In this document: positions 29,740 to 33,779 of the stretch, one piece after another
Numbering within the stretch: the stretch's first letter is position 1
How the letters are laid out: every line of letters begins with the position of its first letter
Virus genome (UHGV): UHGV-0242533
Source of the DNA: a virus
Direction: 5' to 3' (one strand)
Length of the DNA stretch: 64,000 nt
Made by a program: the position numbers and the translations under genes
The notes under the pieces: generated by a model
Seen by the model: the letters and a program-made list of their open reading frames with translations, nothing else
Databases searched by the model: none
Told to the model about the DNA's origin: nothing

Positions 29740-30290
29740 AGAAAAAGAAGAAAGTGTTTGCATTCGATATCGAGAGTAATGCACTGTACGATGACATAAC
29801 TAAAGTATGGTGTATTTATATCTTTGATGTTGAAACTGGTGAAAGGTGGGGCTATCGGCCTCACCAAATTGAAGATGGGATTCATAAACTTACAGAAGCA
29901 GATGTGCTCGTGGGTCACAATATTATTGACTTCGACCTTTGTGCTCTGAAGAAAATGTATCCCAATCTAATTGAATATCGTTTTAACGTCTTTGACACTT
30001 TATGTCTTAGTCGATATCTTAAACCTGACCGTATTGGTGACAGTCCTGAGTATCCGAAAGGCGACCCTAGACATGGCCCAAGAGGTCATGGCTTGAAGCA
30101 ATGGGGTGAGTTCTTAGGGGAACTTAAAGGTGATTACGGTGAGCAAGAGGAAGCATGGGATGCTTTCACTGAAGATATGTTTACTTATTGTGAACAGGAC
30201 GTTAACTTAACTGTTAAGGTTTATCTTTTCTTGTGTGAACTCACGGGATTTGACCCTTACGACCCACCTTCATTATATTGGAAAATGTAA
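29733..30290 (+). CDS. DNA polymerase I family, 3'-5' exonuclease domain as a separate gene
   Basis: FDIESNAL (Exo I), HNIIDFD (Exo II), YCEQDV (Exo III); own GTG start and stop. Confidence 0.8.
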
Positions 30291-30291
30291 A

Positions 30292-31662
30292 ATGATTGTT
30301 ATCCCGATTAACCGAATTGAAGATAAGGTTGCTCAACAACCTGATATTGCTGTTGGTCGTCACTTCATTGAACAGTTGATTAACAACAACTTGGTTCCAG
30401 ACGGTATCTGTCCCATCATTACTGGTGGGGCTGTTCGAGATGCTGTGCTTAATAACACAGCTCCACATGACATTGATATCTTTATTGTCAGAGGACAAAC
30501 ACCAAGAACTCAAAACACATTCATCCCAACTGATCGTTGGCAAGCTCTTGGAAGAGAGATTGAAAGTAATGTGAAGGAATGGCTAGAGTCACAAGATATC
30601 GAATATGCATCCCTTCTTGCTGAAGCTACAAACGAATCCTATGCTGGGGGTTCTCAATTAACATTCACTGATATTATTGAGTTTCAGTGGAATGGAACCC
30701 GCATTCAATTCATGTTTAATTATCCTACTTCTATTGAAGAGGTATTGGATAATTTTCCTATGATGTGCCGTGGTGCGATAACTCTTGACAGCTTATTCAT
30801 GACCCCTCATGGATATTTAGCTATGACCGCTCCTTGCCCTGTGGTTGTTTCTAGTCGTGAAATCAGATACGTTCACAAGAAGTGGCCTAATTCACAGGTA
30901 TTAAGATTCTCCGCTCCATCTGTTGCATATCAATATATGGCACAAACTCGATACCTTCCTACACCTCAACCAGTTAGTCATCTGGTCAACGAACGAGGTC
31001 AGGTTGCTCCTGTTGAGGATACAACAAGTGCTCAATATTGTGTTAACCGAGACATGAGTCGATTCTTTGGAATCCCTTACGAAGAAATTCAGTTAATGTC
31101 AAGTGTTCATGGCTCTGGTCAGATTCGTGCGTATTGGTCTGAAGGGTTGACGAATTTAACAACTAATACAGGAGGGGATCTCCTTGGTCGAGAAGAGGAA
31201 CCTAACCGACACAATGCAATTGAAGGGGTGTTTGTAGCCCCTGCAATGCGTCGAGCACAAGAGTCACGAAGAGTAAGCCCTACTCGTAGAACATCTTTTG
31301 AAGAGGCTCTTGGTGTTACTAGCGATTCATTTGAGCAGTGGTTGTCTAGACGTTCTAATGGTCTGTCAAATGGTTTGACTGCTAGCCGTCACCAGTTCTC
31401 TGGTCAGGGTTTTGCTGTTGGTGATATTGACCAAGCTGCTCGTGTTATATGGACTGATGAAGCATCTGCTCAAGATGTGGTTAATAATCTCGCCGATCTT
31501 GATATTCCTTCTCATGGCGAGCTAGCTGAGACTGTCAGTCGTAGTCTCGCTGATCGCTTTGTTGCTGATAACCCTGAAGTATTAGAGCCTCAAACCAATA
31601 CAATTAGTGTTGCTGACGTAGTTGGTGATGGATTCTCTTTTTACGCACGAACAAATAACTAA
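30292..31662 (+). CDS. Pol-beta-superfamily nucleotidyltransferase with CCA-adding-enzyme/poly(A)-polymerase-like head motif
   Basis: GGAVRDAVLNNTAPHDIDIF matches the GG-x-VRD...P-x-D-x-D signature; downstream 400 aa unrecognised. Confidence 0.6.
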   Translation: MIVIPINRIEDKVAQQPDIAVGRHFIEQLINNNLVPDGICPIITGGAVRDAVLNNTAPHDIDIFIVRGQTPRTQNTFIPTDRWQALGREIESNVKEWLESQDIEYASLLAEATNESYAGGSQLTFTDIIEFQWNGTRIQFMFNYPTSIEEVLDNFPMMCRGAITLDSLFMTPHGYLAMTAPCPVVVSSREIRYVHKKWPNSQVLRFSAPSVAYQYMAQTRYLPTPQPVSHLVNERGQVAPVEDTTSAQYCVNRDMSRFFGIPYEEIQLMSSVHGSGQIRAYWSEGLTNLTTNTGGDLLGREEEPNRHNAIEGVFVAPAMRRAQESRRVSPTRRTSFEEALGVTSDSFEQWLSRRSNGLSNGLTASRHQFSGQGFAVGDIDQAARVIWTDEASAQDVVNNLADLDIPSHGELAETVSRSLADRFVADNPEVLEPQTNTISVADVVGDGFSFYARTNN

Positions 31663-31671
31663 GGAATAAGA

Positions 31672-32205
31672 ATGAGTTTACTAGGAAGTGTTGAACTGCA
31701 TGATGTAATTGACAATGGCTATCTGGATGCGGAGCATAAGTATGTTAACGCTGCTAGTGTGGATATCCGTATTGGTGATACTATCCTTGTTGAAGAACAG
31801 GCTGATGGCATCGTTGATATTGATGCGAAAGAGAATCTTCAGTGGAAGGAAGTAAAGATTCCTGAAGAGGGTTTGGTTATCACTCCGGGTCAGTTCTTCT
31901 TGGCTCACTCTATGGAAGAGTTTAATCTTCCAGATAACATCTCAAGTCTGTTTGTCCTGCGTTCGTCTATGGCTCGTTGTGGTTTGAACCACCTTCACGC
32001 CGGTTGGGCAGATGCAGGATTTAATAGCAGTAAGCTGACATTTGAATTCCATAACGTAACCAAGCACCACAGTTTACGAGTTCGTGCTGGTATGCGTGTA
32101 GGTCAGATGGTAATGTTTGAGCACTCTCATGCAGGGGAACACTCCTATGCAGTGAAGGGTCGTTATAATAACTCTGAAGGTGTAGTTGCATCTAAAGGTG
32201 TGTAA
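31672..32205 (+). CDS. dCTP deaminase / dUTPase-superfamily protein
   Basis: LRSSMARCGL and ADAGFNS motifs. Confidence 0.65.
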   Translation: MSLLGSVELHDVIDNGYLDAEHKYVNAASVDIRIGDTILVEEQADGIVDIDAKENLQWKEVKIPEEGLVITPGQFFLAHSMEEFNLPDNISSLFVLRSSMARCGLNHLHAGWADAGFNSSKLTFEFHNVTKHHSLRVRAGMRVGQMVMFEHSHAGEHSYAVKGRYNNSEGVVASKGV

Positions 32206-32403
32206 ATGAAAAAATGGATTGTTCGTGTACATGATAACACGACTGGAGAGTTAGTAGCTGTAGATTTTGTTAAGACTCGAGAGCACGCACGTAGAGTCAA
32301 AAATCAATACAAGTCTACTTTTAGACTTAACAAGGTTACATTAGGAAGGGCTATTGTGAATAGCGAAGGTGCTTTTATTGCCAACAGTAAGGTTTATTAT
32401 TAA
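32206..32403 (+). CDS. small tandem-paralogue protein (copy 1 of 3)
   Basis: About 65 aa, basic, ends VYY. Confidence 0.5.
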   Translation: MKKWIVRVHDNTTGELVAVDFVKTREHARRVKNQYKSTFRLNKVTLGRAIVNSEGAFIANSKVYY

Positions 32404-32612
32404 TGAGACCGATCACTATGAGACAATTTTGGTTAGCAAAGATCAAGTGGGCATCAGGTGGCATGACTATGACTGCACTACCCACTCGCCAACAAGCTCG
32501 AGATTTTAAAAAGACTATGCTTACTGGTGACGTGGTCAATAGTATCAGTATCCATAAGGCCAAGGAGTATTCTTCTGGTCGTATTTATATCAGCGGAAAG
32601 GTGCATTACTAA
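32403..32612 (+). CDS. small tandem-paralogue protein (copy 2 of 3)
   Basis: Ends VHY; start-stop overlap. Confidence 0.5.
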   Translation: MRPITMRQFWLAKIKWASGGMTMTALPTRQQARDFKKTMLTGDVVNSISIHKAKEYSSGRIYISGKVHY

Positions 32613-32821
32613 TGAAAAAGATGTGGGCTATTCGTGTTGTCTGGGAACAGAAACAACACTTAGGTAAAGATAATATCAAACTGTTTAACACTCGCAAAGA
32701 GGCTCGTGTCGCTAAAAAGAATATGAAAGCTCTAATAGGAACTGTTAAAAGTGCTGACATTCATCGCTGGTATGAAGACCCTAGCTCGGGTTCTTTTATG
32801 TCTAAAGTAATTTATTACTGA
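32612..32821 (+). CDS. small tandem-paralogue protein (copy 3 of 3)
   Basis: Ends IYY; start-stop overlap. Confidence 0.5.
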   Translation: MKKMWAIRVVWEQKQHLGKDNIKLFNTRKEARVAKKNMKALIGTVKSADIHRWYEDPSSGSFMSKVIYY

Positions 32822-32845
32822 TTGGTAGTAGATATGGTAACTCTC

Positions 32846-32854
32846 AAATGTATA
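32846..32854 (+). promoter_or_regulatory. phage-type promoter-like element AAATGTATA
   Basis: One mismatch to TAATGTATA; 40 nt upstream of gene 32894. Confidence 0.3.
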
Positions 32855-32893
32855 TAGAGTACAATAAGAATTTGTATTTTACAGGAGAGAGTT

Positions 32894-33223
32894 ATGTTAG
32901 ATTTGAGTAAAGTGGCCCCGCCCACTGAAGAGATTACAAAATCCAAGGTGATGCAACAGTTTTATCATCGTGATATGCTTGGTCGCTTTATCAAGAATCG
33001 TGATGTTGTTGCTTGGTCTATTGGTAATCAGGGATATCTGTTGAAGGTTCTTCAGGTTACAGGTTCAACTGCTAAGCGAGTTAAGGTGTATGACCCTGAA
33101 ATGGGGCGTTCTAAGTCAGTAGACCCACAGAACTGCATCGTAATTACCCAGCAGGTAATGGATAATATTGCACGTAACGTTGCTAACTCAGTTGAACTTG
33201 ATGGAGAAAACCCAAATGCATAA
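32894..33223 (+). CDS. hypothetical protein (109 aa)
   Basis: ORF. Confidence 0.6.
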   Translation: MLDLSKVAPPTEEITKSKVMQQFYHRDMLGRFIKNRDVVAWSIGNQGYLLKVLQVTGSTAKRVKVYDPEMGRSKSVDPQNCIVITQQVMDNIARNVANSVELDGENPNA

Positions 33224-33779
33224 GAATGTTTTTGATTTACCTGATATTGGTCGTTCAGAATATAACATGTTAGACCGGTCTGAGCTTTCAATCTCTCGCC
33301 TTGAAACAATGCAGGGTATGATTAGTGGAAACAGCCTAGAACACATCCTGAGCTGCTTGCAAGCTAACATGGAACTCTTGCATATCAAAGCTAAAAACTA
33401 CCACTGGAACGTCTCTGGTGCAGGATTTCAGGGTGTTCATGGTATGTTTGACGAGCTGGAAGATTACGCACGACAGGTAGGAGATCGTATTGCTGAACGT
33501 ATGCGTTACCACTGTGTTAAAGTGGACGCTACAGCAGCTAACTACCTCTCTCATGCTTGGTTCTCAGAGGGTAACGCTGATCTAGACATGGACGGTATGC
33601 TCTCTGATATGTGCATGACCTTGATGTGTATTATTGAGAAGATGGATGAGTTTGATGGCGATTTAGCCACTTACCCTGTCGATCAGAGTATGCTTCAAGA
33701 AATTAATGAAGGTCTTGGCAAGTATTGCTACTTCGTCAAGAGCAACATGTCCCATTCAAGTGGTGACGTGTCTTACTAA
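33216..33779 (+). CDS. Dps-like ferritin-superfamily protein
   Basis: KAKNYHWNVSGAGFQGVHGMFDE...DRIAER signature; ATG 33216 with GGAG RBS. Confidence 0.65.
   Translation: MHKNVFDLPDIGRSEYNMLDRSELSISRLETMQGMISGNSLEHILSCLQANMELLHIKAKNYHWNVSGAGFQGVHGMFDELEDYARQVGDRIAERMRYHCVKVDATAANYLSHAWFSEGNADLDMDGMLSDMCMTLMCIIEKMDEFDGDLATYPVDQSMLQEINEGLGKYCYFVKSNMSHSSGDVSY

What the first reader, a model, noticed from the sequence alone, without database searches (positions are those of the whole stretch)
32206..32821. Triple tandem array of 65-69-aa basic paralogues ending in aromatic YY/HY
Three consecutive start-stop-overlapping genes of similar size and charge, all ending V/I-Y/H-Y, indicate recent tandem duplication and co-translation.
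Basis: seen in the sequence. Interest (0 to 1): 0.4.

Follow-up and report, generated by a model that had tools for sequence, protein, structure and literature searches.

The report
Old triplet of small phage genes
Three back-to-back genes for tiny, strongly basic proteins in a phiEco32-like E. coli phage are true but ancient copies of one another (phiEco32 genes 71, 70 and 69); their function is unknown, so this is an ordinary feature with modest follow-up value.

Summary
Window 32206-32821 carries three same-strand ORFs of 65, 69 and 69 aa, with pI 10.1-10.6. They are joined by TAATG stop/start overlaps and end in VYY, VHY and IYY.

They are genuine paralogues. Clade-specific HMMs recover the other two copies at E 2e-7 to 3e-3, and hhalign gives 96-98% probability. 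AlphaFold2 predicts the same beta-beta-alpha-beta-beta fold for copies 1 and 3 (pLDDT 91.5 and 88).

The window is a Kuravirus (phiEco32-like). The genes are orthologues of phiEco32 gp71, gp70 and gp69, and all fall in PHROG 4939 (unknown function).

"Recent duplication" is wrong. The copies share 23-30% identity and almost no DNA similarity. Each forms its own clade across two or three genera.

Related phages carry 2-4 copies, always between dCTP deaminase and middle promoter P68, at the end of the early operon. The genes are under purifying selection (dN/dS 0.06-0.30). They diverge much faster than their flanks, and alleles reassort between genomes.

No Pfam, PDB or defence-system relative was found. 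My best guess is early accessory proteins that bind an acidic target through an invariant T-R-x-x-A-R-x-x-K helix.

Interest is low to moderate.

The parts
32206..32403 (+). Copy 1 (c1), 65 aa, pI 10.3; orthologue of phiEco32 gp71. This is the most dispensable copy: it is absent or replaced in EcoN5, L026 and Suseptimavirus.
   Evidence: ORF and sequence. Hits phrog_4939 at E=7.8e-27. AlphaFold2 pLDDT 91.5 with strand-strand-helix-strand-strand topology. Orthology and absence.
32403..32612 (+). Copy 2 (c2), 69 aa from the ATG at 32403, or 64 aa from the ATG at 32418, which is the position homologous to the starts of c1 and c3. pI 10.6; orthologue of phiEco32 gp70.
   Evidence: ORF. Hits phrog_4939 at E=9.2e-28 with residues 6-69 matched. 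64-aa orthologues begin at MKKFW.
32612..32821 (+). Copy 3 (c3), 69 aa, pI 10.1; orthologue of phiEco32 gp69. It is the last ORF of the early transcription unit and the most allele-rich copy.
   Evidence: ORF. Hits phrog_4939 at E=8.2e-27. AlphaFold2 pLDDT 88. Alleles and divergence.
32195..32199 (+). Shine-Dalgarno-like AAGGT for c1, lying inside the last codons of dCTP deaminase.
   Evidence: Sequence read.
32389..32393 (+). Shine-Dalgarno-like AAGGT for c2, formed by the Lys-Val codons of the c1 tail (dual coding).
   Evidence: Copies followed by a coupled copy end in AAG/GAG GTN in 11 of 13 cases; last copies do so in 3 of 9.
32598..32602 (+). Shine-Dalgarno-like AAGGT for c3, formed by the Lys-Val codons of the c2 tail.
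32823..32856 (+). Middle promoter P68. It has a conserved upstream box TGGTAGTAGATA (32823-32834) and the gp36-type -10 motif AATGTATATA (32847-32856). It marks the 3' boundary of the array and of the early unit.
   Evidence: Motif found and invariant across genera. Motif and temporal classes taken from PMC4281155 and PMC12276001.
32837..32895 (+). RNA hairpin in read-through early mRNA. Its outer 9-bp stem pairs 32837-32845 with 32887-32895, which covers the SD and start codon of the next gene, g68.
   Evidence: MFE -19.4 kcal/mol, z -4.4. Seven of 9 pairs covary and 0 of 500 shuffles reach the observed score.
31672..32205 (+). dCTP deaminase, the conserved 5' neighbour of the array (context only).
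   Evidence: Annotation. PF22769:DCD is found in related contigs.

Best explanation
SHOWN. The three ORFs are real protein-coding genes. They are diverged paralogues of one small family, PHROG 4939, found by sequence only in Gordonclarkvirinae isolates and syntenic metagenomic contigs. They are orthologous to phiEco32 gp71, gp70 and gp69.

Each protein is predicted to be a single 7.5-8.2 kDa beta-beta-alpha-beta-beta domain (AlphaFold2, copies 1 and 3 only). The array always sits between dCTP deaminase and middle promoter P68. It is therefore the last translated block of the sigma70-dependent early operon.

The duplications are old. The genes are under purifying selection, but they evolve much faster than their neighbours, and alleles are swapped gene by gene between otherwise near-identical genomes.

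INFERRED.
- The copies are made together early in infection, in roughly fixed ratio, through stop/start-overlap coupling.
- They act as stoichiometric binders, not enzymes.
- The one surface invariant in all paralogues is the N-terminal half of the single helix (T-R-x-x-A-R-x-x-K-[KR]). With net charge +8 to +9, this suggests a shared acidic ligand: nucleic acid or an acidic protein surface.
- The variable hairpins (beta1-beta2 loop, beta3-beta4 region) give each paralogue and allele its own specificity.
- Fast turnover, allele shuffling, variable copy number (2-4) and dispensability of c1 fit accessory host-interaction or host-takeover proteins better than core replication parts.
For: - Homology.
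- Orthology and synteny.
- Family size: only 21 clusters at 50% identity among 1.84 billion proteins, all 65-79 aa.
- Ancient duplication.
- Fold.
- Invariant W5, R28, A31, R32, K35 and near-invariant T27 and Y69.
- Charge.
- Purifying selection with excess divergence: dN/dS is 0.06-0.30. c3 dS is 0.66 against 0-0.17 for the flanks (window versus Bas91). c2 and c3 are 48-58% identical between genera, against 81-100% for dcd, g68 and Dps.
- Free reassortment of c1, c2 and c3 alleles.
- Early class and P68: PMC4281155 and PMC12276001; promoter conservation.
- Coupling signals.
Against: - There is no direct evidence for any ligand or phenotype.
- The invariant Arg/Lys residues could be structural, for example helix capping or salt bridges to the sheet. 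I could not inspect the model coordinates.
- The proteins were not detected in the SU10 proteome. Small Lys/Arg-rich proteins give few usable tryptic peptides (my own reasoning), so this is weak negative evidence.
- Position among replication and nucleotide-metabolism genes would also suit a replication accessory role.
- Stop/start overlaps are common in this genome, so coupling need not imply a complex.
Confidence: 0.45

Rival explanations
1. The three paralogues are subunits of one hetero-oligomer, made in equimolar amounts by translational coupling. The complex binds phage DNA or RNA as an accessory factor of the neighbouring replication and nucleotide-metabolism machinery (dCTP deaminase, CCA-type nucleotidyltransferase, Dps-like protein).
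For: - 1-nt overlaps and embedded SD sequences are conserved across genera.
- The c2-c3 pair is present in every array examined.
- The predicted fold has a single helix and four strands. If the helix packs on one face of the sheet, the other face would be open, as in many dimerising small domains. This is inference; I did not inspect the coordinates.
- Strongly basic charge.
- Fixed position in the replication and nucleotide module.
- A weak local match of the strand-helix motif to ribosomal protein uL22 (E=0.5).
Against: - Alleles of c1, c2 and c3 reassort freely among Kuravirus genomes, so there is no sign of co-adapted interfaces.
- c1 is absent or replaced in several phages, and copy number varies from 2 to 4.
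- The genes evolve far faster than the supposed partners.
Confidence: 0.2
2. The array encodes anti-restriction or anti-defence factors. These would be small early basic proteins that shield phage DNA or block host nucleases, explaining the unexplained resistance of Gordonclarkvirinae to restriction-modification systems.
For: [quoted passage not shown] It points to the dCTP deaminase and nucleotidyltransferase locus (PMC11990801). The array lies directly next to that locus.
- Early expression.
- Allele shuffling and copy-number variation, as expected for arms-race genes.
Against: - dN/dS is well below 1, so there is no sign of positive selection at the whole-gene level.
- To my knowledge the known anti-restriction DNA mimics (Ocr, ArdA, Ugi, p56) are acidic. 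These proteins have pI above 10.
- The fold matches are at noise level.
- Adjacency is the only link.
Confidence: 0.08
3. One reading: a recent tandem triplication giving redundant, near-equivalent copies.
For: Same size, charge, fold and tail.
Against: - 23-30% identity between copies and no DNA similarity beyond a 37-nt relic.
- Three separate orthologue clades across genera.
Confidence: 0.02

Closest known systems
phiEco32 gp71, gp70 and gp69 (ABY52872, ABY52871, ABY52870) and their orthologues in SU10, Bas91, Paul and others; PHROG family phrog_4939
   Same: Same genes. Full-length HMM matches at E about 1e-27. Same order and position between dCTP deaminase and gene 68/P68. Identity to phiEco32 is 95%, 86% and 77%.
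   Different: Only allelic differences. The window's c3 allele is the rarer one, shared with phages Paul, 1-6bf and Ptacy1532 at 98.6%. All are annotated as hypothetical. I found no paper that mentions their paralogy.
Small alpha+beta phage-encoded inhibitor proteins (T4 Dmd antitoxin, AcrIIC3, Bacillus phage p56 Ung inhibitor)
   Different: No sequence similarity, and the scores are at background level for a 69-residue domain. To my knowledge p56, Ugi and Ocr-type inhibitors are acidic DNA mimics, whereas these proteins are strongly basic.
[not shown]
   Same: Sheet plus one helix over 64 aligned residues. To my knowledge PsaD is also a basic protein that docks an acidic partner.
Ribosomal protein uL22 (N-terminal strand-helix element)
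   Same: A local motif, strand then N-T-R-E-x-A-x-x-x-K helix, aligns to family profile positions 13-52.
   Different: E=0.5 is not significant. To my knowledge the overall uL22 fold is different.

Membership tests
PHROG 4939 / phiEco32 gp69-71 family | Significant full-length match to the family profile | tested here: met
   All three copies match at E 8e-27 to 9e-28 over the whole 67-position profile.
PHROG 4939 / phiEco32 gp69-71 family | Syntenic position between dCTP deaminase and gene 68 / promoter P68 | tested here: met
   Same order in phiEco32, SU10, Bas91, EP335, SU7, ECBP2 and metagenomic relatives. P68 is conserved.
PHROG 4939 / phiEco32 gp69-71 family | Family signature: W near the N-terminus, T-R-x-x-A-R-x-x-K helix, C-terminal Tyr | tested here: met
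   W, R, A, R and K are invariant; T and the terminal Y are at least 90% conserved across 30 diverse members, including the three window copies.
Recent tandem duplicates | High nucleotide similarity between copies; copies cluster by genome rather than by position | tested here: not met
   The only DNA similarity is a 37-nt stretch at 76%. Copies cluster by position across genera with bootstrap 84-99.
Translationally coupled gene set | Stop/start overlap with a Shine-Dalgarno sequence inside the upstream ORF | tested here: met
   TAATG at 32403 and 32612, with AAGGT 10 nt upstream of each ATG. The pattern is conserved in 11 of 13 internal junctions across loci.
Translationally coupled gene set | Downstream translation depends on upstream translation | not testable with these tools
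   This needs reporter fusions or ribosome profiling. Overlaps are common genome-wide, at 11 of 79 junctions.
Curated protein domain families, including the DNA- and RNA-binding domains in Pfam and PDB | Profile or fold match to a described family | tested here: not met
   [not shown]
DNA-mimic anti-restriction and Ung inhibitors (Ocr, ArdA, Ugi, p56) | Strongly acidic surface that mimics DNA (defining feature taken from my own knowledge) | tested here: not met
   pI is 10.1-10.6, with 12-15 Lys+Arg against 3-6 Asp+Glu. The p56 fold match is E about 1.
Known anti-phage defence system proteins (PADLOC) | Match to a defence-system HMM | tested here: not met
   0 of 30 members match.

The most novel reading that the evidence does not exclude
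The array is the missing restriction-evasion or anti-defence determinant of Gordonclarkvirinae. On this reading, the three small basic early proteins have a fold with no solved relative. They would bind phage DNA or an acidic host nuclease surface and so account for the group's unexplained resistance to RM systems. Paralogues and shuffled alleles would widen the range of defences countered.
Probability: 0.07. Interest if true: 0.7.

Novelty: new member of a known kind. Interest (0 to 1): 0.3.

Why it matters
As it stands, this is a tidy description of a lineage-restricted orphan family. It corrects "recent duplication" to an old, maintained paralogue set, links the window genes to phiEco32 gp69-71, and shows that they are real genes that evolve fast and exchange alleles.

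It would matter more if the proteins prove to be host-interaction factors. Gordonclarkvirinae are common, have a broad host range, and are relevant to phage therapy. Their strong resistance to restriction systems has no known basis (PMC11990801).

A conserved, early, fast-evolving module next to the dCTP deaminase locus is a reasonable candidate to test. Relatives that plate on E. coli K-12 with restored O16 O-antigen now exist (Bas86-93).

Tried and rejected
- Pfam, PADLOC and PDB-sequence searches with single proteins and with 30 members gave nothing.
- The family HMM found nothing near the dcd/g68 homologues of GAP52, SE131 or LAh_8, nor in the first 45 kb of SE131.
- The afdb50 library was unavailable.
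- Gene conversion between the c2 and c3 tails, which are similar in phage O18-011, was rejected because the tails share no DNA similarity.
- Rfam found no RNA family in 31500-33500.
- The sigma70 promoter and terminator scan found fewer promoter-like sites and about as many terminator-like sites as in shuffled sequence.
- The original phiEco32 papers (Savalia 2008, Pavlova 2012) are not held. Temporal classes are therefore cited second-hand from PMC4281155 and PMC12276001.
- A uL22 relationship was rejected at E=0.5.

Full report
WHAT IS THERE

The window region 32206-32821 holds three consecutive + strand ORFs: 32206-32403 (65 aa), 32403-32612 (69 aa) and 32612-32821 (69 aa). I call them c1, c2 and c3.

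- The c1/c2 and c2/c3 junctions are TAATG, so the last base of the stop codon is the first base of the next ATG.
- c1 starts immediately after the stop of a dCTP deaminase gene at 31672-32205.
- The proteins are 7.5-8.2 kDa with pI 10.1-10.6.
- They end in KVYY, KVHY and VIYY.

One caveat concerns c2. The ATG homologous to the c1 and c3 starts (M-[KR]-x-F-W) is the second one, at 32418. Where c1 is missing, c2 starts at that position. The c1/c2 overlap is therefore less certain than the c2/c3 overlap.

ARE THEY PARALOGUES?

Yes, on several independent lines:
- Pairwise BLASTP is significant for c2-c3 (E 3e-6, 30% identity) and c1-c2 (E 1e-4, 23%), but not for c1-c3 (E 0.23).
- All three match one PHROG, phrog_4939 (unknown function), end to end at E about 1e-27.
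- As an independent test, I built HMMs from the orthologues of one copy at a time. Each ranked the other two copies as the best non-self hits among all 1317 six-frame ORFs of the window, at E 2e-7 to 3e-3. Profile-profile comparison gave 95.8-98.3% probability.
- No further copy exists elsewhere in the window.
- AlphaFold2 predicts the same topology for c3 (pLDDT 88) and c1 (pLDDT 91.5). The order is a long strand, a second strand, a 12-14-residue helix, a long third strand, a short fourth strand, then a confidently placed tail.

WHERE DOES IT COME FROM?

The region is 94-96% identical in DNA to many Kuravirus phages. These are phiEco32-like prolate podophages of E. coli in the subfamily Gordonclarkvirinae. 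The genes are the orthologues of phiEco32 gp71, gp70 and gp69, all annotated as hypothetical.

The family is tiny. An exhaustive profile search of 1.84 billion representative proteins found 21 clusters, all 65-79 aa, with none embedded in a larger protein. The members I could place lie in Gordonclarkvirinae genomes or in metagenomic contigs with the same gene order.

In the related Grimontviridae (GAP52, SE131) and in Aeromonas phage LAh_8, the homologue of the downstream gene g68 is present. In GAP52 and SE131 dCTP deaminase lies close by as well. The family HMM found no copy in any of these loci.

AGE AND DYNAMICS

The copies share essentially no DNA similarity. The only trace is a 37-nt stretch at 76% in the conserved helix motif of c2 and c3.

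In a neighbour-joining tree, each copy groups with its positional counterparts from other genera:
- the c1 clade has bootstrap 84-99;
- the c2 clade has 86 and includes Suseptimavirus;
- the c3 clade has 93.5 and includes Suseptimavirus.

The duplications therefore predate the split of Kuravirus, Nieuwekanaalvirus and Suseptimavirus. "Recent duplication" is wrong.

Copy number differs between relatives:
- three in Kuravirus and in EP335;
- two (c2-like and c3-like) in SU7, ECBP2 and E20-1;
- two in EcoN5 and L026, where c1 is replaced by, or lost next to, an HNH endonuclease;
- two plus a second pair between thioredoxin and ThyX in contigs L007 and L008;
- three in L005;
- at least four in L019.

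The c2-c3 pair is the constant core.

SELECTION

The genes are under purifying selection, with Nei-Gojobori dN/dS of 0.06-0.30. They are therefore real genes. They nevertheless diverge far faster than their neighbours:
- Between genera, dCTP deaminase, g68 and the Dps-like protein keep 81-100% identity, while c2 and c3 keep 48-58%.
- Within Kuravirus, the window and Bas91 have identical dCTP deaminase and g68 proteins but only 77% identical c3. Synonymous divergence in c3 is 0.66, against 0-0.17 in the flanks.

Such high dS in a single gene indicates import of a diverged allele by recombination rather than local positive selection.

The alleles of the three genes combine freely among genomes. 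For example, the window-type c2 allele occurs with three different c3 alleles (window, Bas91 and O18-011). The phiEco32-type c2 allele occurs with two (the phiEco32/SU10 type and the EcoN5 type).

EXPRESSION CONTEXT

Directly after c3 lies AATGTATATA (32847-32856), preceded by TGGTAGTAGATA (32823-32834). Both are invariant, or nearly so, in all genera examined.

This is the phiEco32 middle promoter P68, recognised by the phage sigma factor gp36 with gp79. The published motif is tAATGTATAtA, lying 6-8 nt upstream of the start sites (PMC4281155; PMC12276001). The SU10 paper, following phiEco32, places CDS 69-125 in the early class and CDS 25-68 in the middle class.

The array is therefore the last set of ORFs on the sigma70-dependent early operon.

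Each ATG in the array is preceded at about 10 nt by AAGGT. For c2 and c3 this lies in the Lys-Val codons of the preceding paralogue's tail. Across loci, copies followed by an overlapping copy end in AAG or GAG GTN in 11 of 13 cases, against 3 of 9 for last copies.

The K/E-V part of the tail is thus partly dual-coded as a ribosome-binding site. The Val and the terminal Tyr are conserved at the protein level even in last copies.

Coupled translation is therefore plausible. However, 11 of 79 + strand junctions in this window have the same kind of overlap, so the feature is not distinctive.

WHAT DOES IT DO?

Nothing of known function is related:
- No Pfam, PADLOC or PDB-sequence match was found.
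- The best Foldseek PDB match has E 0.3.
- BFVD returns only the family itself and a few uncharacterised proteins of related phages.

The conserved positions are W5, T27, R28, A31, R32, K35 and the terminal Tyr, in c3 numbering. R28, A31, R32 and K35 fall at i, i+3, i+4 and i+7. By helical periodicity they should lie on one side of the helix; I could not check this on the model coordinates. The variable parts are the beta1-beta2 loop, the end of the helix and the beta3-beta4 region.

My best-supported reading, at about 0.45, is this. The proteins are early accessory factors that act by binding rather than catalysis. They would bind an acidic ligand (nucleic acid or an acidic protein surface) through the shared basic helix, and the variable hairpins would set specificity. 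Fast turnover, allele exchange, variable copy number and the dispensability of c1 point to host interaction rather than a core replication role.

The main rival, at about 0.2, is a hetero-oligomeric nucleic-acid-binding accessory of the neighbouring replication and nucleotide-metabolism genes. Conserved coupling and the constant c2-c3 pair favour it. Free reassortment of alleles argues against it.

A more speculative reading, at about 0.08, links the array to the unexplained resistance of Gordonclarkvirinae to restriction systems. The BASEL authors tentatively tie that resistance to the adjacent dCTP deaminase and nucleotidyltransferase locus (PMC11990801). Only adjacency, timing and evolutionary pattern support this reading. 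To my knowledge the known anti-restriction DNA mimics are acidic, unlike these proteins.

COMPARISON AND NOVELTY

The genes have been annotated since the phiEco32 genome was deposited, and they are already clustered as a PHROG. I found no paper that mentions their paralogy or any function, and the SU10 proteome did not detect them.

Tandem families of small early proteins are a familiar feature of phage genomes. I rate this as a new member of a known kind, with interest 0.3. It is a well-defined orphan family with a fold that has no solved relative, in a phage group with an open anti-restriction question. There is no evidence yet of anything unusual.

SIDE OBSERVATION

The 72-nt spacer after c3 folds into a hairpin (32837-32895, -19.4 kcal/mol, z -4.4). 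Its outer 9-bp stem pairs the bases just 5' of the P68 -10 motif with the Shine-Dalgarno sequence and start codon of g68.

Seven of the nine pairs show compensatory changes across seven distinct sequences, and 0 of 500 shuffles reach the observed score. Transcripts that start at P68 would lack the 5' arm.

This suggests that g68 is translationally silent on read-through early mRNA and is translated only from the middle promoter. That would make c3 the true end of early translation.

Noticed in passing
window 32837-32895 (spacer between c3 and g68): An RNA hairpin (-19.4 kcal/mol, z -4.4) whose outer 9-bp stem pairs the bases just upstream of the P68 -10 motif with the SD and start codon of g68. 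Seven of 9 pairs covary across genera. It probably silences g68 translation on early read-through transcripts, while P68-initiated transcripts lack the 5' arm.
   Followed up: partly
window 32823-32834 and 32847-32856: Promoter P68 is almost base-for-base invariant (TGGTAGTA[G/C]ATA ... AATGTATATA) across Kuravirus, Nieuwekanaalvirus, Suseptimavirus and distant metagenomic relatives, even though the coding sequence just upstream is among the most variable in the region.
   Followed up: partly
L014 415-924 (EcoN5), L025 1-291 (O18-011), L026 991-1500: HNH homing endonuclease genes are inserted between dCTP deaminase and the array in several relatives. In EcoN5 and L026 copy 1 is missing, and in EcoN5 two unrelated small ORFs take its place. 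Homing-associated co-conversion could contribute to allele exchange here.
   Followed up: no
L013 992-1198 (SU10 gp072), L004 1892-2098 (myPSH2311), L025 292-498 (O18-011): An extra, unrelated 68-aa ORF sits between dCTP deaminase and copy 1 in some Kuravirus genomes, joined to copy 1 by a 4-nt overlap. In SU10 it reads MNKEEFQELKYL... and is acidic and Cys-containing. It is absent from the window.
   Followed up: no
L007 4771-5213 and L008 3838-4280: A second pair of family members lies between the thioredoxin and ThyX genes in Suseptimavirus-like metagenomic contigs, so the family has dispersed within the module. This pair is not overlapped (14-nt gap).
   Followed up: partly
proteins P0060 and P0089 (79 aa); window frame 32369-32509: Some metagenomic copy-1 sequences run on into the +1 frame (…PTVRFIINETDH…). 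That frame is the overlapping ORF at 32369-32509 in the window. These are frameshifts near the c1 tail, from sequencing error or natural variants.
   Followed up: no
window 30235-31662: The CCA-adding-enzyme-like nucleotidyltransferase upstream of dCTP deaminase is also highly divergent: 71-87% identity within Kuravirus and about 30% between genera. This contrasts with 93-100% identity for dCTP deaminase in the phages where it is intact (87% in the distant contig L005).
   Followed up: no
window 33216-33779: The Dps/ferritin-like gene downstream is variously annotated in GenBank as DNA-binding protein, integrase or ferric iron binding protein. Pfam supports only a ferritin-like domain (E 2.5e-7), so the "integrase" label in several records looks like an annotation error.
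   Followed up: partly
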